A stretch of DNA of 64,000 nucleotides from an uncultured Methanosarcinales archaeon (GCA_964414985.1 CAYPXA010000002.1:87513-151512); one strand, 5' to 3'. Counted from the first letter of the stretch, positions 475 through 29,622 are shown. Numbers and translations are program-made. Notes: generated from the letters alone by a model not told the origin.

Positions 475-3400
475 TCAGATTCTTACAAGGATAATTGCAT
501 CTGCAATATCCTCATCATTCCAGCCTTTCCTGATTATTGCAGGAATCAGCCTGTAAAGAAGAACATTCTTTGCAGACTCCTTCTCAATGTATGAGGCAAG
601 CACTGCAATCTCTCTTGAGCTCTTGTGCTTTTTGGAAGACATAATCTTCCTGTAATCAGCATCCTCTTTTGCTTCGCGCATTGCTTCGCCTATCGATTTT
701 TCAGACCAGCCCACTTTGGAGATGTGCTTGAGGATTATTGAAATTCTGAATCCTCTCCTGACTTCGGTTGTTATGTAATTTTTGAGAAGCTCAATTTTCT
801 CTCCGTGCACTGACTCATCATGGGCTTTTTCATGGTGCAGGTATGCCATGTCAAAGTGATGCATCCATTCAGGAAGCTCTTTTACTCCAAACAAAGACCT
901 TATTCCGAGCTCGTTTCTCAGCCAGAGCTCAAACATAAGCCCGAAAAGGCCTGCGCCATAGAACAATATTGTTACTGCCATGAACACAAGCAGCGAAAGG
1001 CTGATGAAAGGGTTTGCTTCTCCGTTTAAGGAAATTGTTGACGAGTAAAATGATATCACGCTTGTGAAAAAGATAAAGATATAATTGAAGAAGAATGCAA
1101 ATGATGCAATGATTGATGCTGAAGTAATAGCTTTTTTCATGAAAGGAGCAATGCTCATGGCAATGTAAGACAAAATGCCTGCAGCTGCAGATGCTGCTAA
1201 AACCATTTCCAGGTTGGGGAGTACAGCAATGTTGTTTGTCAGTATGTCTACTCCCATCAATCCTTTCAGGTAGATTCCTTTTATTGTGAATGCGCTTGCA
1301 AGCGCAAATGAAGTGAATGAAGCAGCAAACACTGAAACAGTAATTTTTGAAAATTCAATCTTTGGCACTGCTGATGAAGGCAGCTTCCTGTTTCTGTAAA
1401 GGTGGGCCCATACTACTGCAGGAAGCGCAAGAAGCGCAACAATTGCAATTATGTTGAGGGCATAAACTCCGAACAGCACTGCTGAATGCGCAAAGCCCAT
1501 TCCTGCAATTCCCTCTGAAAACAGTGATGTTCCGTTTGGAGGAAGCCCGACAAGCTGCCTTGCCCATCCGAAAATATTGAAGATGGGGATGTGGCCTTCC
1601 TGCCAGCTTGCAAAATAGACTGGGTTGTAAATTCCCAGGACATAAGGCACTATGAAAATTCCGATGGCTGTAAGAGTGTGCAGGATAAGCATTCCTGAAA
1701 TTCCTACCAGAATTGTCTTCCTGTTGTGGAAAAGCTCGACAAATTCTTCATAGAACCTTTCTCCGAGATTGCCTATCTTGTAGACTGTCTTCACAAGCCA
1801 GTGCTTCTGCCTGTGCTTGATAAGCACGAAAAGATAGAACACTATTGCTGCAGTAAGAAGCGATGCATCCACTGCAAGCGCAAGCCATTCCATCATAAGG
1901 TTGAAGACTACTATGAAGAAGAACAAAAGCCCGAGGAAGACAACAACAGCCCTTACAGCCTTCTTGGATATGCTTTCCAGGCTTCCGAATTCGCCCAATG
2001 CTCCCAGGAAGCTCTTCCTGCTTATAGGAGAGGCTGCTGCAATCCATGCAGAGACTGCAAGAAGAATTGCTATGCCTGCAATAAACAAAGTGCTTTCAAA
2101 GAAGTATGCATTGTTTGCTATGAGTATGTACATGTCCTTCATGAATCCTGCGTGCAGGAATTCTGTTTCTGCAATCTTTGACAGGTTCTTCATCATAAGC
2201 ATGAAATATGCAGCGAGAAGCAGGCAGTCAACTTTTGCAGACCTGTTTCCGAAGAGAACCCTTGTTATGCTTGCCTTGAAAAGTATGTAGCCTATGATTG
2301 TCCAGGACACAACAACTTTGGCAAATGAGACTTCTCCTGGAAGAAGTTTCAGGAAGTCAAGCAGATTCAGAAGTATAAGCAGAAGGACTATGAGCTCCTC
2401 AATGTCAATCTCCATCTTTGTGAAAATCAGCCTTGGCAGGCTTGAGCTGAACTTGAGTATGTCTTTTATTGCATTTGTAGCGTATTTTCCCTGCTTAAGG
2501 TATTCTGCAAGAACTTCATCCCTGAACCCCTGCCTTCTCTTTTTTCTTGCCCATGCAATTGCATGATTAAGCGATTGGACCTTTTCCTTCTGCTCATAGC
2601 CGTAAGCAGAAAAGAATGTGATTGTGAATATTATTATTGGAATCAGCAGAAGAGGGATTATTGCGTTTGCAAGCTTTGCTTTAGCTGTTTTCAGAAGTAT
2701 CTGGTGCGCCAACGGAAGGACATTAATCTGGTTTGTGCAGTTCTCGTCTGCAACTTTTTTTATCAGGTAGTTGATTTCATCGTCTGATGAGAGAGTGTCA
2801 AAGTGCCACTTGATTAATGGGTCTTCATTTATTATCTCGAACTCAATGTCAGACTCAATCATCTCCTTCTTGAGTATTTCGACAAGGCATTTGGGGATTT
2901 CAGCAAAGATTGATACATTGTAGAGTATTACTCCTTCCTTCAAGTCCAGGTTTATTGCCAGCGCTGTCTGGTTTTTCTCAAAGTCTGACTGGGTTTTTGT
3001 GGTTATGTTGATGACTTCTGCAGTTTGCTGCGTTATTTTTTCAATATCCTTTTGGACTTCGCTTAATTCTGCTTCTGAAAGGTTTCTTGGAATGATTTCA
3101 ACCAGAATCTGGCTTATCTCGAACTCGCTCAAAGGCTTGTTTATTATGTAGCTGACTGTTGCAGTGCTTCCTGTTTCTATATCTGCTATCATAAACCCAA
3201 TCACAGGGTCTTCTTCAAAGACTGTAAACTGGTCGACAGCAATTATTTCTGAAGCGCTCAGCGCAACATTCTTTGGAATGACTACTTTTATGACTACATC
3301 CTCAAGATTGTAGAATCCTATGTTCTTTATCTCTTCTGCAACCCTCGTTTTGTCTCCTGAAACATAGAACTTTCTTGTGTGCTTTACCTTTGTGTTCATT

Positions 3401-6400
3401 ATTCCAGCAATCACGCTTTCAGGATTGTTCTTTCTTGTTTGCTGCTGGAAAATTCCAGGCGTATTTTGTTGAGGCTGAGTTGTTGAGGGAGGAATATCAC
3501 TTTGGGGTGTTGTGTCAATATTTTCATTTATCACTCCCTGTTCGACAAGCTCTTCAGCCTCTTCTGTTGTCAGGCCTCCGCTGCTTCCTCCTGAGCTAGG
3601 CTTATATCCTACAGACAGCGAAACTGATGGAGAATATCCTTTTGCCATTGAGTCGTCTGCGCTGAATGTTACTGATTCAGAGACTCCGCTAAGCTCTGCT
3701 GAATTTGGAGTGATTCTTGCAATGCCTGCTGTCTGGTTTATGATTACATTAAAGTGTGATGCTGATGATGCGTTGAACAGCAAAGCCTGACTGTCTTCGT
3801 CATAGAAATGCTTTGTCAGGTTTATCTCAACAGAAGAAACACTGCCATACTCCCACGAGTATGAGTTTGTGAAATTTGTTGAGTTGAATTTTGGGATTCT
3901 GTCAATTGTTATGTTTGACGACTGGATTAAGCCAGACTTTCCGTTATTGTCATATGCATAGCAGCTGATGTTTACATTCCTCTGGGCTGGAAGCGATGAC
4001 ACATTCCATTTGCCTTTTTCAGAAACAAGGTATGCCCTGTCGATGTATGTTGCTGCAGTGCCTGACGCCTGTGACTTAATCTGGAATTGGTTTTCTCCCT
4101 GTGCAAGCGTTATGTTTGTGCAGTAAGTTGAAACTGAGGATGACAGGCTTATTGTGCTGCTGTCTGTGCAGATTCCGTCATTCTCATTCTGGCCTGAGAA
4201 TGATGAAGAGCAGTTCCAGCCAAACCTAATTTGAGGAGTGCTTCCGGTTCCGTAGCCTTTTGCGCAGAAAGAATACTCTCCTGCAGGAACATTTATTGAG
4301 AAGTGGGCGTATTTGTATATGGAATTATCTCTTATTATTGCATTCTCATAAACCCCATCATCATAAGCAAGCTCATAGTCATTTGGAATCTGGTCGCCTG
4401 CAAAGTCCTGCTTGAGAACTCTCCACGCTTTTGACGAGCTGTCGTTGTAGTATGCAGTAATGTTGTAGTAAAACTCATCAAGCCTTGTATTGTTTGAGCC
4501 AGAGCAGTAATACTCTATTTCGTACTCGTACAGATTGCTGCCTGCAGGGCTTATTTCTGTTGGAGCAGTTGGAGCTCTGCTGATGTTTGCAAATCCTGAA
4601 TAATTTAGCAATGAGTAATAAGTTCCGTTGAAAGCCCTGCAAGAAATGTTTATGTCCTGCTCTGGAAGAGCGCTTACATCCCATGTGAAAATTTGGTTTG
4701 CAGTTAATGAGTCATTCAATACATTCCAGCTGTATGCTGAAACCGGGCCTGTTTTGTAGTATGCATAAGCCTGGTAGGTTAGTGTTCCTGCTCCTGTGCT
4801 TCCGTTGCAGGAAACGTTTATTTCAGTGTCAAATGCTCCTGATGAAGGATAGACATTTGGAACTGAAGGAGTGTTTGAGTTCTGCACTGAAATGTTTTCT
4901 GCAGAGAAATATCCTGAATCAGCATTAATTCCGTCTTTTGCATTGCATCTTAGGCTAATCCCAGTCTGGTTCTGTATTAAATCAGTATTCCATGTGAAAT
5001 TTCCAAATCCTTTGTCTCCTTCTGATGCATTGGCCTCTGCAATTATCTTCCATTTGCTTCCGTCCCAGTCATTGTAGTATGCCTCAATTGAATATGTGAA
5101 GTTGCTGTCTGAGTCGTTTGCACCAGAGCAGTTTATGCTTACAGGGCTTGAAAATATTTGATTGCTGCAGACTCCTCCGTTGCACGTCATGTTTGTCGGA
5201 GGGTTCGGAGACCCTGGGTGGATGATTTGGATGTCATCATAATTTGATGAGCTTGCTTTGTTTTGAGATAAGGTTATTCCATCTGAAACTATGCAATGGA
5301 TTACTAACTGGATACCTGAGCCTAATTCTGAAACATCCCAAGTGTAATTTCCATTTGTAGTATTAACTATGCTTATTTTTGGGCCTCTGTTATTTTTAAG
5401 TTCATAACTCAAAACATAAGTCAAATTATCTCCGTCGTTATCAGTGCTTCCTGAGCAGCTGATGTTTATCTCATTGTCAAATGTGCCTGATGCAGGGGTC
5501 AATGTTGTTGGAGTTGTTGGAGCAGAATTGTTTACAACAAAGTTCCACGCAGAAGCCTGCTTTGCATTGCTCTGGTTGTTTGTGCACGACACGCTCCAAT
5601 TGTAATTTCCTTTTGGCAAACTCATTCCAGGAAACTGGATAAGATCGTTTGTGAATCTGACCATGTATTGGGAGGTTGCATCGCTTCCGATTGCATAATA
5701 ATTAATTGCATTGTAATTTTTATCTTCAAAGGTTATATTGTTTATTCCGGTTACAAGATAGCTTGAATTCACTATTTTTGAAATCCAAGAATGTGATGTT
5801 TGAACTTCACTGGGAGTTATGTTGAATACATTATGATTATTTATGTAGACTACAAGTGGACCTGCAGCACCTCCGGATGACTGCTTAGCATAAACTTTAA
5901 ACCCAGTATATTGTGTTGAAGACAATGAAAGCTGTTCAGTTATATTTGCGCTTGCTGTGAGGATTGTTTCTCCAGTCCTTGTCCCACTGTCATTCTTTGC
6001 TTCTCCAGCGCCTCCAACAGACGGATTCTGGACTGTTGCATTTGATGTTCCATTTATGTAGAGGGTGCAGTTGTTAATGCTGAAGTCATCGCTAACAATT
6101 GCCTTGAACTCAATTGAGGTGTTTGAATAAAAGCCTGACATTCCGTTTGCAGGGAATGAAAGGTTTACTTCAGGCAAAGGAAGAACATTAATTGTAACAT
6201 TCGTAGAGTTTGTTGCGTTCAAATCATCTATTGCTGTTATTGTTACGTTTCTTTGCCCATAAAAATCAGCATTGGGAGTTATATTCATTATGCCCGTATT
6301 GTTGTTTATGCTTATTGTAATGTTTGCAGCAGAGCTATAATTCCATTTTAGAGTTTGCGACAAATAATCAGGCTCTTCAAAGTAAGGGCTAAGGTTGAAT

Positions 6401-6882
6401 ACATCCATAACATCCTCATCAATAGCTATGGGGGGGATTGACTGCACAATTTGCGGATTCCTGTTGGGGATGGTTATATTGTTTGTTGCATTCAGCCATG
6501 CAAAGCTTGTACTGTTGCAGCTTACGTTATAGGAATGGTTTCCGACGAATGCAAACAATCCTCTCTTGTAAAGCCCTTCTGTTGAGTTGAAATCCATGCT
6601 TCCTTTAAGCACATTGTCAAGGTACAATGAGCAGCTTCCATCAGATATTGCATTGCCTGATGTTGCGTTTGTGTAGTTTGCATAGAAGTAAGTTACTGTT
6701 GTTTCATAGACATTCCTGAATTCTGATGAGTCAAATATTGTCATGTTTGTCTGGCCTATCTGGACAGAAACAGAGGCAAAGACTCCTGCAGCTGCAGCTA
6801 TCAGAATCAGCATCATTATTGCAATATTCCTCAAGCTACTTAATTTTCTCATCTTTTGAATAAGCTTCTGCGAGAGCAGCAA
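475..6882 (-). CDS. giant (about 2135 aa) cell-surface protein: signal/anchor, sequon-rich (NxS/T) beta-rich ectodomain, Thr/Pro/Gln linker, C-terminal polytopic membrane domain (at least 12 predicted TM helices)
   Basis: Uninterrupted 6.4-kb ORF; N-terminal hydrophobic h-region; dozens of N-glycosylation sequons; GSSGG and TTPQ linker; multiple hydrophobic helices in last ~700 aa. Confidence 0.7.
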   Translation of the reverse strand: MLLSQKLIQKMRKLSSLRNIAIMMLILIAAAAGVFASVSVQIGQTNMTIFDSSEFRNVYETTVTYFYANYTNATSGNAISDGSCSLYLDNVLKGSMDFNSTEGLYKRGLFAFVGNHSYNVSCNSTSFAWLNATNNITIPNRNPQIVQSIPPIAIDEDVMDVFNLSPYFEEPDYLSQTLKWNYSSAANITISINNNTGIMNITPNADFYGQRNVTITAIDDLNATNSTNVTINVLPLPEVNLSFPANGMSGFYSNTSIEFKAIVSDDFSINNCTLYINGTSNATVQNPSVGGAGEAKNDSGTRTGETILTASANITEQLSLSSTQYTGFKVYAKQSSGGAAGPLVVYINNHNVFNITPSEVQTSHSWISKIVNSSYLVTGINNITFEDKNYNAINYYAIGSDATSQYMVRFTNDLIQFPGMSLPKGNYNWSVSCTNNQSNAKQASAWNFVVNNSAPTTPTTLTPASGTFDNEINISCSGSTDNDGDNLTYVLSYELKNNRGPKISIVNTTNGNYTWDVSELGSGIQLVIHCIVSDGITLSQNKASSSNYDDIQIIHPGSPNPPTNMTCNGGVCSNQIFSSPVSINCSGANDSDSNFTYSIEAYYNDWDGSKWKIIAEANASEGDKGFGNFTWNTDLIQNQTGISLRCNAKDGINADSGYFSAENISVQNSNTPSVPNVYPSSGAFDTEINVSCNGSTGAGTLTYQAYAYYKTGPVSAYSWNVLNDSLTANQIFTWDVSALPEQDINISCRAFNGTYYSLLNYSGFANISRAPTAPTEISPAGSNLYEYEIEYYCSGSNNTRLDEFYYNITAYYNDSSSKAWRVLKQDFAGDQIPNDYELAYDDGVYENAIIRDNSIYKYAHFSINVPAGEYSFCAKGYGTGSTPQIRFGWNCSSSFSGQNENDGICTDSSTISLSSSVSTYCTNITLAQGENQFQIKSQASGTAATYIDRAYLVSEKGKWNVSSLPAQRNVNISCYAYDNNGKSGLIQSSNITIDRIPKFNSTNFTNSYSWEYGSVSSVEINLTKHFYDEDSQALLFNASSASHFNVIINQTAGIARITPNSAELSGVSESVTFSADDSMAKGYSPSVSLSVGYKPSSGGSSGGLTTEEAEELVEQGVINENIDTTPQSDIPPSTTQPQQNTPGIFQQQTRKNNPESVIAGIMNTKVKHTRKFYVSGDKTRVAEEIKNIGFYNLEDVVIKVVIPKNVALSASEIIAVDQFTVFEEDPVIGFMIADIETGSTATVSYIINKPLSEFEISQILVEIIPRNLSEAELSEVQKDIEKITQQTAEVINITTKTQSDFEKNQTALAINLDLKEGVILYNVSIFAEIPKCLVEILKKEMIESDIEFEIINEDPLIKWHFDTLSSDDEINYLIKKVADENCTNQINVLPLAHQILLKTAKAKLANAIIPLLLIPIIIFTITFFSAYGYEQKEKVQSLNHAIAWARKKRRQGFRDEVLAEYLKQGKYATNAIKDILKFSSSLPRLIFTKMEIDIEELIVLLLILLNLLDFLKLLPGEVSFAKVVVSWTIIGYILFKASITRVLFGNRSAKVDCLLLAAYFMLMMKNLSKIAETEFLHAGFMKDMYILIANNAYFFESTLFIAGIAILLAVSAWIAAASPISRKSFLGALGEFGSLESISKKAVRAVVVFLGLLFFFIVVFNLMMEWLALAVDASLLTAAIVFYLFVLIKHRQKHWLVKTVYKIGNLGERFYEEFVELFHNRKTILVGISGMLILHTLTAIGIFIVPYVLGIYNPVYFASWQEGHIPIFNIFGWARQLVGLPPNGTSLFSEGIAGMGFAHSAVLFGVYALNIIAIVALLALPAVVWAHLYRNRKLPSSAVPKIEFSKITVSVFAASFTSFALASAFTIKGIYLKGLMGVDILTNNIAVLPNLEMVLAASAAAGILSYIAMSIAPFMKKAITSASIIASFAFFFNYIFIFFTSVISFYSSTISLNGEANPFISLSLLVFMAVTILFYGAGLFGLMFELWLRNELGIRSLFGVKELPEWMHHFDMAYLHHEKAHDESVHGEKIELLKNYITTEVRRGFRISIILKHISKVGWSEKSIGEAMREAKEDADYRKIMSSKKHKSSREIAVLASYIEKESAKNVLLYRLIPAIIRKGWNDEDIADAIILVRI

Positions 6883-7096
6883 ACCCCTTGGCTTTTTTGC
6901 TTTCTGTTAATTGAGCAATGCTTGCAGAGCCGACCTGAATAAGGCTGATTACTCCTTCTTTGCTTAGTTCGTGTATTGTCCTGTAAGCTGCATTATAGCT
7001 TAGCTGAGCGTTCTTAGAAAGCTGCAGTATAGTAATAGGCCTGCTTCTGCTTTTGGCAAGTATTTCGACGATTTTGACTGCAAATCTTAGATTCAT
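6836..7096 (-). CDS. small winged-helix (HTH) transcriptional regulator
   Basis: 86 aa; ITILQLSKNAQLSYNAAYRTIHELSKEGVISL resembles wHTH recognition helix; overlaps 5' end of giant surface gene; promoter with direct repeats upstream. Confidence 0.5.
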   Translation of the reverse strand: MNLRFAVKIVEILAKSRSRPITILQLSKNAQLSYNAAYRTIHELSKEGVISLIQVGSASIAQLTESKKAKGFAALAEAYSKDEKIK

Positions 7097-7195
7097 TTGT
7101 TATCTATATTTAGTTAGCTTATTACTTTATTTAATTAATTGTATCTATATTTAGATAATGGGTATATAAGCGTTTCGGTAATCTCTAACTCCTGC
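7097..7195 (-). promoter_or_regulatory. promoter/operator region: AT-rich TATA-like element (7127-7140) flanked by two perfect 13-bp direct repeats TATCTATATTTAG (7101-7113, 7142-7154)
   Basis: Repeats read directly from sequence; positioned about -30 relative to regulator ATG consistent with leaderless archaeal promoter. Confidence 0.5.
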
Positions 7196-7924
7196 TTAAA
7201 TCAACTCTTTGAATGAGCCGTTTTTGTCTATTGTTAGAACGCCATCTTCCATTTGAATTTTATGCACGCCTTTTACAGATCTGAGAAAAACATGATTATC
7301 TTTTATTTTTAGCAGCTCGCTTGAAAAATAGTTGATATCATTGAATTCAAGCTCTTGGCATCGGGGTTCATCATTTCTATATATCTGGAGGTATGTTGTT
7401 TTTCTGCCTCGTACTTCAATTTCTGTATCTTGCCATAAAAACGAGTCTTGCAGGTTTATGCATGAGGACCATCCCATATTTATTTCAAAAGGTTTGACAT
7501 TATTAATTATTTTTTGGATGAACTTAAGAGTCTCTTTTTTTATCATGCCTAATTCCTTTTTATTGTGCTTGTTATTATACCAATAATCATCCCTGAGCCG
7601 AATTACCCAAAAATTACCTGCTTTGTTAAAGCTGAGGCTCCAATCATATAAGGTATTATAATATGGGCTAAAAATTGTATGTGCTGGGTGAATGTATTCA
7701 AAATTTGTTTTAGCAGATTTCCAACTAACCTTTAAAGATTCAATCTTTTTTAGCTCTTTTATTATACTTTCTTCAATTAATTGGGGATTTTGGGAATAGG
7801 AAGTTAGGTACACTTTTAGGAAATCTTTACTTGCTTCCAAAAATCTTTTAATGTACTTTTTATCTTTATGAACATAAATTTCAATTGTTGCCCACTTATT
7901 TTTTTGGTCACTCATTTTAATCAA
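7196..7924 (-). CDS. hypothetical protein, AT-rich; candidate immunity protein for upstream secreted toxin-like protein
   Basis: 242-aa ORF; start overlaps stop of upstream 829-aa gene (8-nt overlap); visibly lower GC than flanking genes; no signal peptide. Confidence 0.5.
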   Translation of the reverse strand: MIKMSDQKNKWATIEIYVHKDKKYIKRFLEASKDFLKVYLTSYSQNPQLIEESIIKELKKIESLKVSWKSAKTNFEYIHPAHTIFSPYYNTLYDWSLSFNKAGNFWVIRLRDDYWYNNKHNKKELGMIKKETLKFIQKIINNVKPFEINMGWSSCINLQDSFLWQDTEIEVRGRKTTYLQIYRNDEPRCQELEFNDINYFSSELLKIKDNHVFLRSVKGVHKIQMEDGVLTIDKNGSFKELI

Positions 7925-10406
7925 TTCCTATGAATATTGTTTTAACCTCAAGTTTTTCAGAAGCATCTTCTAACATTTTTTGAAATTGGATACCCTCAAA
8001 TTTTTTTGAAAGAGCTTCATTCGGCAAAGTATATACTATCTCATCAATTTCCATAAGATAAAATGGTTCGCCATAATCATTTATTAATCTTTTCTTAAAA
8101 TGTTTTCTAAATTTTATTATGTTCTGGGTTACATGCTCCTCGATCCAATTTTCAGGTATAAACCCAAATTTGTTCATGTTTGCTACGCTGAGGCTTTTAC
8201 TTTCAATCCCGATTATTTTATCTCCTTCTGTGGCTAGGCTGTCAAACTGAAATACAGTTTCTCCTTTTTTTCCGTTTTCTAATGCTTCATAAAAATTGGT
8301 TTCCATATGAGTTATCTTTATATTTTTGGATTTTGAGGCTATTATTGCTCCTTTAACTTCAGCAATAATTTCATCAGAATAACTATTTTCTAATTTTTGT
8401 ATTGTCTTTTCTATACCTTTTGCATCTTTTAAATATTTTGAAATATCATTTGCGAGTTGTGCATTTATTTTTTTTATTTTTTTTAGATTTAAAGCATCTC
8501 CTGCATTGTCTGCAATCCTTCCTGCCTTGAACATTCCTGCGCTTAAAACTGGAGTTGCCATGAATGCAATATCTGCAAGGCAGGCTCCCCATCTTATTTC
8601 CTTATCCGAGAATATTCCGCAGTCTTCAACTGCCCAGTATGCATCAGTTATTGTGTCTGTTCCAGGCATTATACCTGTAAAAACTGCTTTCCTTAAAACT
8701 GTATTAGACCCTCCAAGAATCCCAGTCAGTATTTCTGTCGCAGTCTTCTTCATTTGGACAAAAAAGCCGGGCTTTTCTTCCAGCTCTTCTGAAACAACTT
8801 CAATTTCTGCTACTGTGCCTTTTCCGCTGAAATAAAGCGGCTTAATTCCCTCAAACTTATTGAAGTCATAGAGGTTGTACCTCATGGAGGTGTGGCGTGC
8901 AATAACCCATCCTCCTTCATTGTAGTTTATGTTTTCAACATTTGCTTTGACTTCAGACTCAATTTCCCCTGTTTCAGAATTGAATTCAAGTATGCTATTT
9001 CCGGTTATTACAAAAACTGTGCCTATCCCGGGCTTTATCCTTTTAATTCCATAAGGAATCTCTTTCTCCCATACTACGCTATTGTTGTTTATTATTGACT
9101 TTTTTGACAGGAGGGGGGTATATTCTATATTTTTTATGCTTGTGTAGTAATGCTCAAAGTCAGGGTCATATCTTGCTCCAAAGGAGGGGTCATCTAATAA
9201 CTGGTTATACTTTTTGAGAATTGCTTTTGAAACTAATTCTCCAGTTGCAAGGTCATATACCTCAACCCATTTTTCGCCGTATCCTGCATCAATTCCGCAC
9301 ATAAACCTGGCGTAGTCTTCATAGCTGTCAAAAGGTTCGCAGAGGTAGCTGCTGGTTATAACATAAGAATTGCCGGTCTCTTTTTCAATTATTTCATAGT
9401 TGGATTCAAACAATCCTTTTGAGGTTTCCTCTGAAGGGTTGAGTATTACAAGAAAATTGTCTGTCTGCTCAAATACAAACATTGTTTCAGAAATCACTCT
9501 TCTTTCAAAAGTGCGGAGTTCCCACAGTTTTTCTCCGCTATGCGACACTTTAAGCAATCCTGCAGACTGGTGCTCTCCGTTGTAATAAGGGATATTCAGG
9601 TATACTGCATTTTTGTCCGCCAGAATCAATCCAGCTTCATACTGTTCAGGAGTGTTAGTCTCAATTATCCAATCTGTTTTTTCAGAGCAAATATCAATAG
9701 ATGCCAGCTCATTCCCTGTAAAAACATAGGCTTTGCCATTATAATAAATGCTGGAAGTAAAATCTTTTGACTTGATTCCTTCATTTTCAAGTATTTGCTT
9801 TAAGTCGACAACTTTTTTTTCAGAAGTGGCTATATCCTCTTCAGCATAAACAGTGGGGGATTCAATATATTTTATCTTGCCTTCTTCAATGAAATATTTT
9901 GAGTTCCCCTCAAGCTCAAACTGGTTTACAAATCCTTTTTCCCTGCCTTTATGCTGATACCCAAATCCAAGGCTTTTTTCATAGAGAAGGTCTGAAGGGT
10001 AATCTGCTGTGGCATATTCCAGGAAATTGTCCAGCCCGCTGCTGCAGGCTGCGCAAAGAACTTTAAGGCTGCTTAGCCAGCATTGGCTTTTGCCATCTTT
10101 AATAAACAGCTGGCCGAATTTCTTATTTATTTCTCCTTGTGTGAGATTGTTGAATGCTGCCAGCCTGTTGCTAAATTTTTGGTATGTTAATGTGCAGTTT
10201 GAGTTTCCATCTGAATAATAAACAGCATAATGCTTACTTGGGTCTTTAGGCTCATATACTGTTTTCTCATCTGTCTTTATAAAGCCGAAATTTGTAAGGC
10301 TGCTGCTTTCAAATTCATCTATCAACCCTATGCTTCCTGGAGGAATTGCTGAGAAAACAAGTATGATTATCAGCAGTAGTGCTGCGTTTTTTCCTGAAAC
10401 CCCCAT
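7917..10406 (-). CDS. secreted 829-aa protein with beta-propeller-like body and compositionally distinct C-terminal module (candidate polymorphic toxin)
   Basis: N-terminal signal peptide MGVSGKNAALLLIIILVFSAIPPGSIG; C-terminal ~230 aa (approx 7917-8620) much more AT-rich than rest; PGTD/TG-containing segment before C-terminal module. Confidence 0.65.
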   Translation of the reverse strand: MGVSGKNAALLLIIILVFSAIPPGSIGLIDEFESSSLTNFGFIKTDEKTVYEPKDPSKHYAVYYSDGNSNCTLTYQKFSNRLAAFNNLTQGEINKKFGQLFIKDGKSQCWLSSLKVLCAACSSGLDNFLEYATADYPSDLLYEKSLGFGYQHKGREKGFVNQFELEGNSKYFIEEGKIKYIESPTVYAEEDIATSEKKVVDLKQILENEGIKSKDFTSSIYYNGKAYVFTGNELASIDICSEKTDWIIETNTPEQYEAGLILADKNAVYLNIPYYNGEHQSAGLLKVSHSGEKLWELRTFERRVISETMFVFEQTDNFLVILNPSEETSKGLFESNYEIIEKETGNSYVITSSYLCEPFDSYEDYARFMCGIDAGYGEKWVEVYDLATGELVSKAILKKYNQLLDDPSFGARYDPDFEHYYTSIKNIEYTPLLSKKSIINNNSVVWEKEIPYGIKRIKPGIGTVFVITGNSILEFNSETGEIESEVKANVENINYNEGGWVIARHTSMRYNLYDFNKFEGIKPLYFSGKGTVAEIEVVSEELEEKPGFFVQMKKTATEILTGILGGSNTVLRKAVFTGIMPGTDTITDAYWAVEDCGIFSDKEIRWGACLADIAFMATPVLSAGMFKAGRIADNAGDALNLKKIKKINAQLANDISKYLKDAKGIEKTIQKLENSYSDEIIAEVKGAIIASKSKNIKITHMETNFYEALENGKKGETVFQFDSLATEGDKIIGIESKSLSVANMNKFGFIPENWIEEHVTQNIIKFRKHFKKRLINDYGEPFYLMEIDEIVYTLPNEALSKKFEGIQFQKMLEDASEKLEVKTIFIGID

Positions 10407-10522: not shown

Positions 10523-13500
10523 TTGAAGGAGTGGGTGTTTGGGTCTAAAATGGATAACAAGTACGGATTATTCATGGTTATTGCAGGAGTTCTTCTACTT
10601 ATAGCAGTGCCATCTGCATTTGTTGCAGACTACCTGCTTAACTGCAATACTGTTATAGCAAGCCCTATATCCTCCAAAGTCTTATCCGAATCATATCTTA
10701 AAGCGCCAGATGCTATTTCTGCGCCAGCAGAGCCTGCCGAGCAGGCTGAAACTGCTGAACCCAAGCCAGCAGAAGTTAGCTCATCTAGCAAAAGCTCTTC
10801 TTCATCAAAGTCATTAGTATCTTACACTCCTCCAACCAGAAGGACAAACGCAAAATCCAAGGTTGAGCAGTCAGTACAGGACAAGATTGAAAATGAAGGA
10901 AATGCAAGAGTCATTGTTTCTCTTAATGAGCCTTCACAGAAGGACTTTGTTCTTAGCCAGCTTTCATCTTTTGAAAAGGAAGCTGACATGAAAGAAGGAT
11001 TTGCAGGCTATGTAAATGAAGCAGACTTAAGCATTCTTGCTGCAAGCGACGCAGTAAACCTTATTGAAGAAGACAGGCCTTTGAGAATTGCAACAGCTGA
11101 AAGCTTTCCACTGATGAAAGTAGCGCAATCAAAGAACTCAACACTCAACGGCTATGCAGGCATTACAGGCGCAGGACAAACAGTCTGCGTGATTGATACG
11201 GGAGTTGATTATTATCACCCTGCTTTGGGTGGTTGTTCAGGAACACAGTTTTTGAATGGAACTTGCCCAAAGGTTATTGGAGGTTATGATTATTATAATA
11301 ATGATGCAAACCCGGTTGACGACAACGGCCACGGAACTGCAATTGCAGGAATCATTGCAGCAAACGGCACAACATACAAAGGAATTGCACCAGAAGCAAA
11401 GATTGTTGCTCTCAAGATAACAGACTCAAATGGAAATGGATGGACTTCAAGGCTGAATAGTGCATTGGATTGGTGCAACAACAATGCAACCCAGTTTAAC
11501 ATAACTGCTATTTCAATAGCTTTTGCATATGATGATAATGGAACCACCTGGAACACATCTACCCTTTGCGATTCAGGAACAACTGCAACAAGGATTGCAA
11601 CAGCTGTAAGTAAAAACATCACAGTCTTTGCGCCTACCGGAAACAACGGAGACATTGACGAAGTTGGTTTCCCTGCGTGCAACTCAAATGTGATTTCTGT
11701 TTCGTCTGTTCAGGACGGCTCTAATGGCGGTTCTGGTGCAGATGTTATTCCAAGCGTTGCAGGAGACGGATGGAGCCCTGCAAGATTCCCAGGCATGGTT
11801 GATGTTTTGGCACCGGGGGATGCTATTGACACAATTAGACTATATCCCTCGGTTAACTACTCTTACAACAATGGTGGCTCTTCTTTGTCAAGTGCGCACG
11901 CAGTTGGTGCAGGCATTATTTTGAGGGAGTATTTCCAGGGAAGGTACAACACAGTCTTGACTCCTAGCCAGATTAAGAATATTCTTACAATTACAGGAAA
12001 GCCAATTTATGATAGCGCTACTTCATACACTTATTACAGGATTGACATGCTCAAGGCTGTAAATTATGAAACTTATGCGCCTGTTCCAACTCAGATTACT
12101 TCAACCAGTGCTGTTTTTACAAATTCAAATGTTGCTTTAGTCTATAATGTTACAGACCATCATGCAATTGCAAACTGCACTTTGTACATCAACGGAACAT
12201 CAAACTTGACAGATACAACTGTTGCAAGGAACACAAACCAGAATTTTACTTTGTCATTGGCAGACGGCTCATACTCATGGAAGATAAGCTGTTATGACAA
12301 CTCAACTATTCCAAACCAGGGCAATTCAACATCAAGGACTTTTACAGTTGACACAACTAATCCTTCTTCAGTTACAGGACTTAACTCTCCATCGCTTAGC
12401 CATAACTGGATTTACTGGAATTGGACAAATCCAAGCGATGCAGATTTTGACAACGCCATTATTTACATCAACGGAACTAATGTTGTCAACACAACAAACA
12501 ATTATTACAACGCAACAGGCCTGAATTCAGGAGTGTCATACCAGATTAAGATTCATACAAAAGACACAAACGGAAACATAAACAATACAGACGTTGCTTT
12601 AACAAACACAACAATAGACATACTGCCACCCTCAAGCATTTCAGCGCTCTCACTTTCATCAAAAGGAGTAACATGGATATTGTGGACCTGGACAAATCCT
12701 TCAGATTCAGACTTCAGCCAGGCAATTGTTTACATTGACGGAAACAACGTTGCAAACATCACAGGAAACAGCTACAATGCAACAGGATTCAGCGGAAACA
12801 CAACGCACACAATCAAAGTGCACACCAAAGACACAAACGGAAACGTAAACAGCACAGATGTTTCAGACTCACAAACAACAAATCCTGTTCCTGACACAAC
12901 ACCACCAGGAACAATCTCCAACTTAGACTCTCCAGCATTGGGAACAGACTGGATTTACTGGACCTGGAACAATCCTTCAGACTCAGACTTTCACCAGGCA
13001 ATAATCTACATTGACGGAAACAACGTTGCAAACATCACAGGAAACTCTTACAACGCAACAGGATTGTCGCACTCAACACAATACACAATAAATGTCCACA
13101 CAAAAGACACATCAGGAAATGTTAACACAAACGACATAACAGACGCACAAACAACAAACACACCAGCACCCTCATCAGTTTCAGGCCTTGCTGCGCAATC
13201 AAAAGGCACAACCTGGATTTACTGGAGCTGGACAAACCCTTCAGAGTCTTATTTTGACGAATGCATAATCTACATAGACAGCATAAATGTTGCAAACACA
13301 ACAAGCAACTACTACAACGCAACAGGCTTCCTGCCTTTTGAACCTCACACAATAGTAATCCACACAAAAGGAGCAAACGGAGCTGTAAACACAGCAGACA
13401 TAACAGACACAGACTCAACTCTGCAGAGCTCAGTTGACCTGGAAGTAACACACTTTGGAATTTATTCAGACAACCCAAGAGCAAACTCAATGACATCCTT

Positions 13501-13756
13501 TGCAGCTTTCATCCAAAACAAAGGAACAATCACTGCAAGCAACATCTACTGGAAATTTGAAAGCGATGAAAACAACATCAACCACACATCAGGCCCATTC
13601 AGCCTTGCACCCGGAGGAATAGCAAGACTCTATCCGTCTTTTAATTACGCATCAGCAGGAGCCTATAATCCTGTATTCACAATAGACTATCAAAACATAG
13701 TAATAGAATCAAACGAATCAAACAACCAGAAAACAATAACAGTCAATATTTCATGA
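10523..13756 (+). CDS. subtilisin-like serine protease (peptidase S8) with four tandem ~95-aa Ig/FN3-like repeats and C-terminal CARDB-like domain
   Basis: Catalytic triad motifs VIDTGVD, DDNGHGTAIAG, GGSSLSSAHAVGAG; N-terminal TM/signal; repeated NW(I/T)YW.WTNPSD...IY(I/D)(N/G)N.VAN..... units; real start may be ATG at 10550. Confidence 0.85.
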   Translation: MKEWVFGSKMDNKYGLFMVIAGVLLLIAVPSAFVADYLLNCNTVIASPISSKVLSESYLKAPDAISAPAEPAEQAETAEPKPAEVSSSSKSSSSSKSLVSYTPPTRRTNAKSKVEQSVQDKIENEGNARVIVSLNEPSQKDFVLSQLSSFEKEADMKEGFAGYVNEADLSILAASDAVNLIEEDRPLRIATAESFPLMKVAQSKNSTLNGYAGITGAGQTVCVIDTGVDYYHPALGGCSGTQFLNGTCPKVIGGYDYYNNDANPVDDNGHGTAIAGIIAANGTTYKGIAPEAKIVALKITDSNGNGWTSRLNSALDWCNNNATQFNITAISIAFAYDDNGTTWNTSTLCDSGTTATRIATAVSKNITVFAPTGNNGDIDEVGFPACNSNVISVSSVQDGSNGGSGADVIPSVAGDGWSPARFPGMVDVLAPGDAIDTIRLYPSVNYSYNNGGSSLSSAHAVGAGIILREYFQGRYNTVLTPSQIKNILTITGKPIYDSATSYTYYRIDMLKAVNYETYAPVPTQITSTSAVFTNSNVALVYNVTDHHAIANCTLYINGTSNLTDTTVARNTNQNFTLSLADGSYSWKISCYDNSTIPNQGNSTSRTFTVDTTNPSSVTGLNSPSLSHNWIYWNWTNPSDADFDNAIIYINGTNVVNTTNNYYNATGLNSGVSYQIKIHTKDTNGNINNTDVALTNTTIDILPPSSISALSLSSKGVTWILWTWTNPSDSDFSQAIVYIDGNNVANITGNSYNATGFSGNTTHTIKVHTKDTNGNVNSTDVSDSQTTNPVPDTTPPGTISNLDSPALGTDWIYWTWNNPSDSDFHQAIIYIDGNNVANITGNSYNATGLSHSTQYTINVHTKDTSGNVNTNDITDAQTTNTPAPSSVSGLAAQSKGTTWIYWSWTNPSESYFDECIIYIDSINVANTTSNYYNATGFLPFEPHTIVIHTKGANGAVNTADITDTDSTLQSSVDLEVTHFGIYSDNPRANSMTSFAAFIQNKGTITASNIYWKFESDENNINHTSGPFSLAPGGIARLYPSFNYASAGAYNPVFTIDYQNIVIESNESNNQKTITVNIS
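12355..13440 (+). repeat. four tandem ~285-bp intragenic repeats (about 90% DNA identity between repeats 2 and 3) encoding FN3/Ig-like domains of the S8 protease
   Basis: Direct comparison e.g. 12700-12800 vs 12965-13065 nearly identical. Confidence 0.7.
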
Positions 13757-28158: not shown

Positions 28159-29622
28159 TTACTTAACAATAAGCAGCTTTGCTATGATGAATGCGCCTGC
28201 CATCACTACAGCAGCTATTGCCAAAACCAAAAGAAGCACATAGACTGTGCTGTCCCTGAATCCCTGGCCTGATGTTCCTGTAACTGTTGTTACTGGGACT
28301 GTGCTGCCTGATGTTGGCTGAGCTTCAGCAACTCCTGCTCCTGCTGCTGCAGTTGCGCCTGTGCTTGTTGATGGCGCTGTTGCATTAGCCTGGGCTGGAG
28401 CGCTTGGCTGCTCTGCTTCGCATGACTTGATGTTTATTGACACTGTCTGCCTGTCTGTTTCCTTGCTCCTGTCATAGTAAGCTACTACAGTAAATGCCTT
28501 TGAGCCTGTAGAGTCAACTTCTGAAGGAATTGCAATGTCAAATACAACCTTCTTGTCATCGCCTTCGTCAAGCGAGAGGTCAACTTTCCATGAGTCTATC
28601 TCAAGGTCCTCGTTGTATATCCTGACTGCAGCTTCGTCCTCGTCATTCTTTCCTATGTTGGAAATGCTGACTTCAACAGCAACAGACTCTCCGCATGATG
28701 CTGTTGCAGGGCTGATAGTTGCAGAGTTAATCCTTATCTCGTGGTTGTTCTTCTTGACTTCAAAGTCGCCTTCAATCCTCTGGCCGTGCTTTGCGCCAAA
28801 GCTGTCTTCGCCTGCTGCTATAACCAGTATGTCATACTCGTCATCGTCAACATCATCTTCAACATCAAATGAGAACTCCAGTGTTTCCTCTTCTCCTGCG
28901 CCAATGTCGCCGAATTCGAGGTCATCATCCTCATCTATGTCTCCGCCGATTTCCCATTTTCCGTCATCAGCTTCGATGTCAATGTCGTCAGATGACTTGA
29001 ACCTGTTTTTTGCTGAAATTGTTAGCTTTACAGAATCGCCTGGCTTGACGTCATCAATTGAGTCTCCGTCATCCTTAAGGCTCTGTGTTTCTCCGCCGAT
29101 TTCAAAGTCAATGTCTGAAATCTCAATCATGTTTTTTCTCTGCATGTATGCATTGAATGTTGCAACTGTTGCAGTTCCTGCCTTGAGGGTTACTGCTGCA
29201 ATGTTGAATGCAGCTGCCTTCTGCTCTGAATTGACTGCATCCAGCTTTTCAGAAATCCTTGCCTTCAGTGTGATGTCTGCAGTGCTGTTTGCAGCGATTG
29301 TTACAGCGCTGACAAGGCTTATGTTCATGTCGCTCTCTGTAAACCCAAGGTTGTACAGTGCGCTTACTGAATTTATTGTGACTGCTGATACTCCATTGTT
29401 GTAGACTCTTACAACTCCGGTATCATAAACATTGTAGTCTGAATCATCGTCATCCAAATCCGGATTGCTTGCCTTCTGGTCAGCCCCTCCGAATATCGGG
29501 CTTGTTTCGCTGAATGTGCTTGTAACACTTACTGCTGCAAGTGCTGGTGCTGCAAAAACAGCCAAAATAAGCACAGCGCATAGGCCGAGTATTGAAAACT
29601 TCTTCATTTTTTGAACCCCCAT
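28159..29622 (-). CDS. acidic cell-surface protein with N-terminal signal peptide and C-terminal TM anchor
   Basis: Signal MKKFSILGLCAVLILAVFAAPALA; D/E-rich; C-terminal VYVLLLVLAIAAVVMAGAFIIAKLLIVK. Confidence 0.65.
   Translation of the reverse strand: MGVQKMKKFSILGLCAVLILAVFAAPALAAVSVTSTFSETSPIFGGADQKASNPDLDDDDSDYNVYDTGVVRVYNNGVSAVTINSVSALYNLGFTESDMNISLVSAVTIAANSTADITLKARISEKLDAVNSEQKAAAFNIAAVTLKAGTATVATFNAYMQRKNMIEISDIDFEIGGETQSLKDDGDSIDDVKPGDSVKLTISAKNRFKSSDDIDIEADDGKWEIGGDIDEDDDLEFGDIGAGEEETLEFSFDVEDDVDDDEYDILVIAAGEDSFGAKHGQRIEGDFEVKKNNHEIRINSATISPATASCGESVAVEVSISNIGKNDEDEAAVRIYNEDLEIDSWKVDLSLDEGDDKKVVFDIAIPSEVDSTGSKAFTVVAYYDRSKETDRQTVSINIKSCEAEQPSAPAQANATAPSTSTGATAAAGAGVAEAQPTSGSTVPVTTVTGTSGQGFRDSTVYVLLLVLAIAAVVMAGAFIIAKLLIVK

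What the first reader, a model, noticed from the sequence alone, without database searches (positions are those of the whole stretch)
475..7195. 2135-aa protein fusing a heavily sequon-decorated ectodomain to a ~700-aa polytopic membrane domain, with a small wHTH regulator and repeat-flanked promoter upstream
The N-terminal ~1400 residues look extracytoplasmic. They follow a signal/anchor, are beta-rich and carry very many NxS/T sequons. A Thr/Pro/Gln linker follows. The final ~700 residues contain at least 12 hydrophobic helices, an architecture more typical of transporters or glycosyl/oligosaccharyl-transferase-like integral enzymes than of S-layer anchors. An 86-aa wHTH gene overlaps its 5' end. 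The promoter has two perfect 13-bp direct repeats (TATCTATATTTAG) flanking the TATA-like element, which suggests autoregulated expression of a surface structure.
Basis: partly seen in the sequence, partly recalled or inferred. Interest (0 to 1): 0.5.

Follow-up and report, generated by a model that had tools for sequence, protein, structure and literature searches.

The report
Woesearchaeal giant surface protein fused to base
A tiny symbiotic-type archaeon (Woesearchaeota) encodes a 2125-residue sugar-coated surface protein fused to an undescribed 12-helix membrane domain that relatives make as a separate neighbouring protein, and a small repressor-like gene with two conserved palindromic binding sites appears to control both.

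Summary
ORF 475-6882(-) is intact and identical in independent assemblies. A 47%-identical 2098-aa orthologue exists in another Woesearchaeota MAG. It has a signal peptide and 71 NxS/T sequons: 63 in the first 1150 aa, where 27±4 are expected. It has one anchor helix plus 12 further TM helices, and an 86-aa wHTH gene overlaps its start.

The 12-TM domain matches no Pfam or NCBIfam family, no PDB sequence and no PDB fold. It belongs to a family found almost only in DPANN archaea: 562 clusters, mostly standalone proteins of about 490 aa.

A tandem β-sandwich "stalk" module lies just outside the membrane.
- It is present in all 18 fusion proteins examined.
- In 14 standalone loci it sits in a separate surface-protein gene no more than 1.3 kb from the 12-TM gene.
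- It occurs nowhere else in the fetched flanks.

So the window protein is a Rosetta-stone fusion of a two-gene surface system.

The "13-bp direct repeats" are two 16-bp dyads, TATCTA-N4-TAGATA. Two copies lie upstream of every wHTH homologue found (7 loci), spaced 20 or 40-41 bp. The TATA box is more likely upstream of them than between them, which implies autorepression. What the 12-TM base does biochemically remains inferred.

The parts
7163..7170 (-). TATA-like box CTTATATA, 5 nt upstream of the distal operator
   Evidence: Read directly from the sequence. A TTTATATA-type box lies 1-6 nt upstream of the distal dyad in L009, L025, L049, L050 and L051. Its function is inferred.
7142..7157 (-). 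Distal operator dyad TATCTAAATATAGATA (TATCTA-N4-TAGATA)
   Evidence: The same dyad occurs upstream of the wHTH homologues in L009, L025 and L049-L052 and nowhere else in the 45 loci then held.
7101..7116 (-). Proximal operator dyad TAACTAAATATAGATA; it ends 4 nt before the wHTH ATG and starts 41 bp from the start of the distal dyad
   Evidence: In 7 loci the dyads are spaced 20, 20, 20, 20, 40, 40 and 41 bp.
6836..7096 (-). 86-aa winged-helix-type DNA-binding protein, the putative autorepressor of the operon
   Evidence: Sub-threshold Rrf2, HTH_11, IclR and TrmB matches. Homologues are 42% identical in L009 and 31-39% in L025, with the SYNA(A/T)xRT helix conserved.
475..6852 (-). Giant fusion gene, 2125 aa plus stop
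6772..6852 (-). Sec-type signal peptide, aa 1-27
   Evidence: Basic n-region, hydrophobic core 10-28 and VFA|S motif. Cleavage is inferred.
3553..6771 (-). Variable N-glycosylation-sequon-rich ectodomain, aa 28-1100. It includes a Big_9 Ig domain (aa 160-222) and four ~100-aa Cys-pair Ig-like repeats (aa ~445-985).
   Evidence: Ectodomains differ completely among related fusion proteins.
3388..3555 (-). Thr/Pro/Gln-rich low-complexity linker, aa ~1100-1155
   Evidence: Composition.
2665..3390 (-). Tandem β-sandwich stalk module, aa 1155-1396: two copies of the IPK...(D/E)DP.I.W.F domain joined by a helix
2608..2664 (-). Anchor TM helix IIPLLLIPIIIFTITFFS, carrying the PLLxIP motif
   Evidence: The same motif is found in the C-terminal anchors of separately encoded partner proteins.
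2401..2607 (-). Cytoplasmic basic loop with a small helical motif, aa 1416-1484
   Evidence: 14 K+R; small helical bundle in the AF2 model.
901..2400 (-). 12-TM integral membrane domain, aa 1485-1984, of an undescribed family found almost only in DPANN archaea. Conserved D1542, E1655-W1656, D1662, H1725, G1867-x-D1869, and an extracellular β-hairpin.
478..900 (-). Cytoplasmic tail, aa 1985-2125, with two further copies of the small helical (GW..E.I..A) motif
   Evidence: No Pfam or PDB match.

Best explanation
Region 475-7195 is a two-gene operon of a Woesearchaeota (DPANN) archaeon.

Gene 1
- It encodes an 86-aa winged-helix protein.
- Probably as a dimer, it binds two 16-bp dyads (TATCTA-N4-TAGATA).
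- The dyads lie between a TATA box and its own start codon, on the same face of the DNA.
- Binding would repress its own transcription and that of the overlapping downstream gene.

Gene 2
It encodes a type-I-oriented, N-glycosylated surface protein. From N to C terminus it has:
- a variable adhesin-like head of Ig-like domains;
- a flexible T/P/Q linker;
- a conserved tandem β-sandwich stalk module;
- one anchor helix;
- a 12-TM domain of a previously undescribed family;
- a cytoplasmic tail.

In most relatives the head + stalk module + anchor helix is one gene. The 12-TM protein is the adjacent gene. Here the two are fused.

The most likely role of the 12-TM domain is a dedicated membrane base. 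It would hold module-bearing surface proteins at the cell surface by docking the stalk module and anchor helix on its extracellular face.

Shown: the architecture, the topology logic, the family distribution, the gene-neighbour and fusion linkage, and the operator conservation.

Inferred: repression, glycosylation, docking, and any catalytic or transport activity.
For: Integrity and orthology.

Taxon: 36 genome loci, nearly all Woesearchaeota, Nanoarchaeota or Nanoarchaeia MAGs, plus some bins labelled "uncultured Methanosarcinales". The window carries archaeal markers (TFB, NOG1, TYW3).

Family: 562 representatives at E<=1e-3, mostly 470-600 aa standalone proteins. 18 fusion proteins of 790-3179 aa were examined.

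Fusions: all 18 carry the tandem module directly N-terminal to the TM helix and 12-TM domain. Their heads are unrelated: Ig repeats, FG-GAP, β-helix, subtilase.

Rosetta stone: an iterated module HMM hits only fusion genes, or genes no more than 1.3 kb from a standalone 12-TM gene. That covers 14 standalone loci, with no other hit in the remaining fetched flanks. The partner proteins have a signal peptide, a variable ectodomain, the module, and a PLLxIP anchor helix with a basic tail.

Phylogeny: the fusions form two clades in an NJ tree.

Topology: positive-inside counts. AF2 pLDDT 76 with pTM 0.76 for the 12-TM domain and 0.64 for the 976-aa unit.

Conserved polar residues: a cluster of E/D/H residues. 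By my topology assignment they lie at the outer ends of TM5 and TM6, in TM7 and in the β-hairpin.

Regulator: wHTH homologues overlap the giant gene in L009 and L025, and precede giant-type ORFs in L049-L051. Two dyads lie upstream of all 7 wHTH genes, spaced 20 or 40-41 bp. The motif is absent elsewhere in the window (0.04 expected) and in the other fetched loci.
Against: - There is no experimental data of any kind.
- The docking role of the 12-TM domain was not tested. The AF2 output gives no inter-domain error map, and pTM falls to 0.64 for the whole unit.
- Strongly conserved acidic and His residues fit an enzyme or an ion/ligand site better than a passive anchor.
- About 19 standalone loci show no module gene nearby.
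- Some partner proteins (the pilin-like class) lack the C-terminal anchor.
- Some fusion loci (L046) have no small regulator upstream. Others use unrelated small DNA-binding genes.
- One wHTH with dyads (L052) is followed by an AbiE-like pair, not a giant gene.
- The AT-rich dyads themselves resemble TATA boxes, so the promoter geometry is uncertain.
Confidence: 0.55

Rival explanations
1. The 12-TM domain is a processing or sorting enzyme. It would work like exosortase/archaeosortase, or like a lipid or glycan transferase, acting on the stalk module or the PLLxIP anchor of its neighbouring (here fused) surface protein. For example, it might cleave or modify the anchor so that the ectodomain is re-attached or released.
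For: - Partner proteins end in a conserved domain + Pro-rich helix start + TM + basic tail, the layout of C-terminal sorting signals.
- The polytopic protein is tightly linked to them in the genome.
- Polar residues E1655, D1662, H1725, D/E1729 and D1869 are nearly invariant.
Against: - No similarity to exosortase, archaeosortase or any enzyme family.
- No conserved Cys: the maximum column frequency is 10%.
- The pilin-like partner proteins carry the module but no C-terminal anchor.
- The window protein has Ala at the D/E1729 position.
- Covalent fusion to the substrate is unusual for sorting enzymes.
Confidence: 0.2
2. The 12-TM domain is a transporter or channel physically coupled to an adhesin. 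Attachment of this DPANN cell to a host or substrate would then position an uptake or exchange pore at the contact site.
For: - Twelve TM helices with conserved charged residues within or at the ends of helices.
- DPANN lineage with a reduced genome (the lifestyle is from general knowledge).
- Heads look like adhesins or hydrolases.
Against: - No match to any transporter family or fold.
- No internal 6+6 repeat is evident.
- The conserved neighbour is a specific β-sandwich module rather than any solute-binding protein or ATPase.
Confidence: 0.15
3. The membrane domain is a GT-C/oligosaccharyltransferase-like glycosyltransferase that glycosylates the sequon-rich ectodomain.
For: - 13 TM helices plus a large extracytoplasmic domain in one chain.
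- Very many sequons.
Against: - No STT3, PMT or other GT-C Pfam or NCBIfam match.
- No WWDxG motif.
- The soluble part is N-terminal, not C-terminal as in STT3.
- Sequon enrichment is shared by other secreted proteins of the genome.
Confidence: 0.03
4. The fusion is an artefact: a mis-assembly, a frameshift, or a decaying pseudogene joining two neighbouring genes.
For: In most relatives the two parts are separate genes.
Against: - Identical sequence in independent assemblies.
- A 47%-identical orthologue with the same 2100-aa frame.
- 18 fusion representatives in two clades, all with the same junction architecture.
Confidence: 0.02

Closest known systems
Exosortase/archaeosortase systems with C-terminal sorting signals (e.g. 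ArtA with PGF-CTERM proteins)
   Same: A polytopic membrane protein is tied to surface proteins that end in a conserved signature + TM helix + basic tail. The link is recognised through genomic association.
   Different: - No sequence or fold similarity and no conserved Cys.
- The shared unit is a ~120-aa β-sandwich module, not a short motif.
- There are only 1-2 adjacent partners, not many dispersed ones.
- Here the two parts are covalently fused and the anchor helix is retained.
- No NCBIfam family of any kind, CTERM-type or other, matches the anchors.
Giant, variable surface proteins of DPANN archaea (e.g. the SPEARE proteins of Nanohaloarchaeum antarcticus; from my own knowledge, not tested here)
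   Same: Very large, lineage-variable extracellular proteins carrying adhesion or protease domains, in small archaea that depend on hosts.
   Different: Those proteins are not known to carry this stalk module or a 12-TM C-terminal domain. No homology was established here.
STT3/AglB oligosaccharyltransferases and other GT-C enzymes
   Same: About 13 TM helices plus a large extracytoplasmic domain in one polypeptide.
   Different: Opposite domain order, no catalytic motifs, and no family or fold match.
Archaeal winged-helix autorepressors that bind palindromes overlapping or downstream of the TATA box/TSS (e.g. MDR1, Phr, Lrp/TrmB-type; general knowledge)
   Same: A small wHTH protein. Dyad-symmetric operators lie between the TATA box and the start codon of its own operon, in two copies spaced by whole helical turns.
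   Different: All Pfam wHTH matches are below threshold and there is no PDB relative. The protein is only ~86 aa with no ligand-binding domain. Binding was not tested.
AliA/AliB archaeal lipoprotein lipidation proteins (PMC12462473)
   Same: A polytopic archaeal membrane protein family with no detectable fold relative, assigned to surface-protein biogenesis by comparative genomics.
   Different: - That family (arCOG02177/02178) acts on N-terminal lipobox cysteines.
- The window protein has no lipobox Cys in its signal peptide.

Membership tests
STT3/AglB oligosaccharyltransferase (GT-C) | Match to the Pfam STT3 or related GT-C models | tested here: not met
   No such hit for the whole protein at E<=0.1, or for the isolated 12-TM domain at E<=5.
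STT3/AglB oligosaccharyltransferase (GT-C) | WWDxG motif and a C-terminal extracytoplasmic domain | tested here: not met
   No WWD anywhere in the protein. The large soluble domain is N-terminal and the C-terminal tail is cytoplasmic by the positive-inside rule.
STT3/AglB oligosaccharyltransferase (GT-C) | GT-C fold | tested here: not met
Exosortase/archaeosortase | Match to the exosortase/archaeosortase family models | tested here: not met
   No Pfam or NCBIfam hit.
Exosortase/archaeosortase | Invariant catalytic Cys (with Arg and His) | tested here: not met
   Across 138 family representatives no column has Cys above 10%. One His is 96% conserved.
Exosortase/archaeosortase | Substrates carry a recognised CTERM sorting domain | tested here: not met
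   The module+anchor tails of five proteins give no significant NCBIfam or Pfam hit. A PLLxIP + TM + basic tail layout is nevertheless present.
Known transporter superfamilies (MFS, ABC-2, RND and others) | Family model or fold match | tested here: not met
   No Pfam hit. The Foldseek matches to SLC and ABC structures have TM 0.1-0.16, which is noise.
Winged-helix transcription factors (Rrf2, IclR, TrmB, HTH_11 types) | Pfam match above the gathering score | tested here: inconclusive
   Best is Rrf2 at E 1.5e-4 and 22.4 bits against a cut-off of 30. Several HTH families match the same residues 3-58. No PDB sequence relative. The generic wHTH assignment is likely; no specific family is established.
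Winged-helix transcription factors (Rrf2, IclR, TrmB, HTH_11 types) | Sequence-specific DNA binding to a dyad operator | not testable with these tools
   Indirect only: two TATCTA-N4-TAGATA dyads lie upstream of all 7 homologues, and the putative recognition helix SYNA(A/T)xRT is conserved.
Bacterial Ig-like domain Big_9 (PF17963) | Pfam match above the gathering score | tested here: met
   aa 160-222, 26.8 bits against a cut-off of 23.6, E 1e-5. This concerns one head domain only.
New DPANN 12-TM family (defined here) | Full-length match to the profile of the standalone proteins, with the EW...D, H...(D/E) and GxD motifs | tested here: met
   aa ~1470-1984 aligns end to end with the standalone proteins at 29-37% identity. 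The family profile scores 617 bits against this ORF. The motifs are present, except Ala at the D/E1729 position.

The most novel reading that the evidence does not exclude
The stalk module and the 12-TM protein form a previously unrecognised surface machine found almost only in DPANN archaea. The 12-TM component, with a fold not seen in the PDB, would actively sort, process or gate, rather than merely anchor, interchangeable giant adhesin or enzyme heads used for host contact. Each head-bearing operon would be switched by its own small repressor, giving a phase-variable or contact-regulated surface repertoire.
Probability: 0.3. Interest if true: 0.8.

Novelty: new variant of a known kind. Interest (0 to 1): 0.6.

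Why it matters
Woesearchaeota and other DPANN archaea are abundant, mostly uncultured, and thought to live attached to other cells. How they build and hold their contact surface is largely unknown.

This locus gives three testable handles:
- a ~560-cluster membrane protein family, found almost only in DPANN archaea, with no annotation and no solved fold relative;
- a specific β-sandwich module that links that family to variable surface proteins, both by gene adjacency and by repeated fusion;
- a compact regulator-operator pair with a clear sequence motif.

Together they define a candidate surface-display or host-contact system. It can be searched for in MAGs, modelled as a complex, and tested biochemically without cultivating the organism.

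Tried and rejected
- Pfam and NCBIfam scans of the whole protein and of eight sub-segments gave only faint Ig-domain hits.
- PDB sequence and profile searches with the tail, the 12-TM alignment and the wHTH found nothing.
- The Foldseek AFDB library was not available.
- A word-indexed search with the alignment returned one extra protein. The same search with the juxtamembrane region returned none, not even the query itself, so those two searches were unproductive.
- I considered whether the ~100-aa extracellular loop insertion in the 570-640-aa standalone members is a degenerate copy of the stalk module. The module HMM gives no significant hit there, so I rejected the idea.
- BLAST self-comparison of the ectodomain found no repeats. 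The four Ig-like repeats appear only in a direct alignment.
- The bare 13-mer is not statistically unusual in the window. Only the dyad reading is.
- No tRNA genes, and no sign of a mobile element around the locus.
- Literature searches found no description of this family or of its fusion proteins.
- An apparent recurrence of Archease near family members (L005, L045) was judged likely synteny or coincidence and was not pursued.

Full report
**1. The observation**

The window has an uninterrupted ORF at 475-6882 on the minus strand, 2135 aa from a TTG. The plausible start is ATG 6852. That gives 2125 aa beginning MRKLSSLRNIAIMMLILIAAAAGVFA|SV, a typical Sec signal. Public gene calls use Met13, giving 2113 aa.

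The same DNA occurs with 0 mismatches over 6726 nt in two independent Logan assemblies. It also occurs over 3376 nt (0 mismatches) and 2590 nt (1 mismatch) in two truncated ones. A Woesearchaeota MAG from another site (L009) encodes a 2098-aa orthologue. It is 47% identical along its whole length, with 33-66% identity in every 100-aa bin. A frameshift or assembly artefact is therefore excluded.

There are 71 N-x-S/T sequons. Of these, 63 lie in aa 1-1150, against 26.8±4.2 in shuffles. There is no enrichment in the membrane part. 28 sequon columns are shared with the orthologue. Other secreted proteins of the window are similarly enriched (2.2-3.0 per 100 aa, against about 0.3 for cytoplasmic proteins). 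So this is a genome-wide surface-protein trait, not a peculiarity of this gene.

**2. Anatomy**

From hydropathy, two AF2 models and comparison with relatives, the protein reads as follows.

| Residues | Feature |
|---|---|
| 1-27 | Signal peptide |
| 28-1100 | Variable head: a Big_9 Ig domain (the only Pfam hit above threshold) and four ~100-aa repeats with an invariant Cys pair |
| ~1100-1155 | Thr/Pro/Gln linker |
| 1155-1396 | Two β-sandwich domains joined by a helix, each with the signature IPK...(D/E)DP.I.W.F |
| 1397-1415 | Anchor helix IIPLLLIPIIIF |
| 1416-1484 | Basic cytoplasmic loop with a small helical motif |
| 1485-1984 | Twelve further TM helices, with a conserved extracellular β-hairpin |
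| 1985-2125 | Cytoplasmic tail with two more copies of the helical motif |

K+R counts alternate as expected for an N-out, C-in topology.

The linker, however, is not adjacent to the membrane. A conserved 240-aa extracellular module lies between them.

**3. What the membrane domain is not**

It gives no Pfam or NCBIfam match, whether searched within the whole protein or alone at E up to 5. A profile of the family finds nothing among PDB sequences.

There is no WWDxG motif, and no conserved Cys in the family. Membership of GT-C/oligosaccharyltransferase, exosortase/archaeosortase or known transporter families was therefore tested and not met.

**4. What it is**

The domain (aa ~1470-1984) aligns end to end with standalone proteins of 477-636 aa. 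An exhaustive profile search finds 562 cluster representatives. Most are standalone proteins of 470-600 aa.

A scan of one genome per species finds 36 loci. Nearly all are in Woesearchaeota, Nanoarchaeota or Nanoarchaeia MAGs, plus some bins labelled "uncultured Methanosarcinales". The window itself carries archaeal markers (TFB, NOG1, TYW3, archaeal IMP cyclohydrolase).

Across 138 representatives the conserved polar residues, in window numbering, are:
- D1542, K1555, S1614;
- E1655-W1656 and D1662, which sit at the outer turn between TM5 and TM6;
- H1725, with D/E at 1729 (the window has Ala there);
- Y1746 and W1815;
- G1867-x-D1869 in the extracellular hairpin.

**5. The key finding: a Rosetta-stone fusion**

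18 fusion proteins of 790-3179 aa were examined. In an NJ tree they form two clades, of 11 (including the window) and 7 members. A further N-terminally extended singleton, P0066 (707 aa), gave no module hit.

All 18 carry the tandem β-sandwich module immediately N-terminal to the anchor helix and 12-TM domain. Their heads are unrelated to one another:
- Ig repeats in the window protein;
- FG-GAP/VCBS-type repeats plus an fn3-like domain in L010, P0035 and P0152;
- β-helix arrays in P0119;
- a subtilase plus β-helix and cadherin-like arrays in L025.

An HMM of the module, iterated on the fetched DNA, hits only two kinds of gene. One is the fusion genes. The other is genes lying 0-1323 nt from a standalone 12-TM gene. 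That second kind covers 14 loci, sometimes with two tandem partner genes. There is no other hit in the remaining fetched flanks or elsewhere in the 64-kb window.

Most partner proteins have a signal peptide, a variable ectodomain, the module, and a C-terminal anchor with the motif PLL(V/I)IP(L/F), a hydrophobic run and a basic tail. Some also carry the cytoplasmic helical motif. A second class has an N-terminal MKKRGQ + hydrophobic (pilin-like) start and the module in mid-protein.

So the stalk module and the 12-TM protein are linked in two independent ways: by neighbourhood and by repeated fusion. The window gene is the fused form of a two-gene surface system.

**6. The regulator and its sites**

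The 86-aa ORF (6836-7096, minus strand) gives only sub-threshold wHTH-type matches to Rrf2, HTH_11, IclR and TrmB.

Homologues lie directly upstream of the giant gene and overlap it in two loci:
- L009, 42% identity;
- L025, 31-39% identity, whose 3113-aa fusion has a completely different head.

A metagenome scan with the three sequences returned four more homologues. Three of them are followed by ORFs with the window-type N-terminus, cut by contig ends. The fourth (L052) is followed by an AbiE-like pair.

Each is part of a 16-bp dyad, TATCTA-N4-TAGATA. The distal one is TATCTAAATATAGATA at 7157-7142. The proximal one is TAACTAAATATAGATA at 7116-7101.

Two such dyads precede every one of the seven wHTH genes. 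In six loci the proximal dyad ends 0-4 nt before the ATG; in L052 it ends 33 nt before. The start-to-start spacing is 20, 20, 20, 20, 40, 40 and 41 bp, roughly whole numbers of helical turns.

The dyad with up to 1 mismatch occurs nowhere else in the window (0.04 expected). The exact dyad occurs nowhere else in the 45 loci then held.

A TTTATATA-type box lies 1-6 nt upstream of the distal dyad in six loci. Where the dyads are 4 nt apart there is no room for a TATA box between them. The likely geometry is therefore TATA, then the distal site covering about -20 to -2, then the proximal site in the leader. In archaea that is a repressor arrangement; this is inferred from general knowledge of archaeal promoters. 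The AT-rich dyads could themselves act as TATA boxes, and I cannot exclude that.

Other fusion loci carry different small DNA-binding genes in the same position:
- RHH-type in L010 and L048;
- a ~100-aa HTH protein in L045 and L047;
- none in L046.

**7. Mechanism**

I commit to the following. A wHTH autorepressor controls an operon whose product is a glycosylated, interchangeable-head surface protein. That protein is held in the membrane by a dedicated 12-TM base. The base normally works as a separate subunit that docks the stalk module and anchor helix.

My confidence differs by part:

| Claim | Confidence |
|---|---|
| Architecture, linkage and fusion | high, about 0.85 |
| Autoregulation | moderate, about 0.7 |
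| 12-TM domain as a passive dock | about 0.4 |
| 12-TM domain as a processing enzyme | about 0.2-0.3 |
| 12-TM domain as a channel or transporter | about 0.15 |

The last three cannot be resolved here. The conserved outer-face acidic and His residues leave an active role open.

**8. Novelty**

Nothing in Pfam, NCBIfam, the PDB or the searched literature describes the 12-TM family, the module or their fusion.

In logic the system resembles sorting-enzyme/CTERM systems, and other giant DPANN surface proteins. It shares no component with them. I rate it a new variant of a known kind: a surface-protein anchoring or sorting system with a dedicated polytopic partner. A more novel reading is kept open at about 0.3.

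Noticed in passing
window 7196-10406 (-): An 829-aa secreted protein with no Pfam match. Its C-terminal ~150 aa contain a D...GIESK motif reminiscent of PD-(D/E)xK nucleases. It is followed by a 242-aa protein, also with no Pfam match. This could be a polymorphic toxin + immunity pair sitting just upstream of the operon.
   Followed up: no
L010 6264-6407; L048 2624-3004; L045 5708-6004; L047 1808-2113: Other fusion genes of the family are preceded, often with overlap, by small DNA-binding genes of unrelated types. These are a 47-aa RHH-like protein, a 126-aa tandem-RHH protein with repeated TGTGCA/TGCACA upstream, and a ~100-aa protein with a C-terminal HTH. A small dedicated regulator appears to be a recurring partner whatever its fold.
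   Followed up: partly
L012, L013, L014, L019, L042 (genes adjacent to standalone 12-TM genes); L001 14595-15452: A second class of module-bearing partner proteins starts MKKRGQ + hydrophobic segment, like archaeal class-III (pilin-type) signal peptides. In the source contig a Peptidase_A24 prepilin peptidase gene lies about 2.3 kb beyond the 3' end of the giant gene, just outside the window.
   Followed up: no
L052 1667-2899: A wHTH homologue with two dyads 40 bp apart is followed by an AbiEi/AbiEii-like toxin-antitoxin pair rather than a giant gene. The regulator-operator cassette is therefore not strictly tied to the fusion genes.
   Followed up: partly
window 10523-13756 (+), 45857-49384 (+), 56946-59609 (+), 28159-29622 (-), 38165-39337 (+): The window is rich in other large secreted or anchored proteins. 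They include an S8 subtilase with fn3/CARDB domains, a 1175-aa protein with a C-terminal TM helix and basic tail, a papain-family protease, and CARDB and PKD/Big_9 proteins. None carries the stalk module.
   Followed up: partly
window aa 1416-1484 and 1985-2125 of the giant protein (nt 2401-2607 and 478-900): A ~30-aa helical motif (roughly Y....L..G.....I...L...GW....I..A) recurs three times on the cytoplasmic side. It also follows the anchor helix in some separately encoded partner proteins (L020, L032). It has no Pfam or PDB match and its role is unknown.
   Followed up: partly
P0001, P0002, P0004 and other 570-640-aa family members: A subgroup of standalone 12-TM proteins carries a ~100-aa insertion, with sequons, in the predicted extracellular TM3-TM4 loop. 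It is not detectably related to the stalk module.
   Followed up: yes
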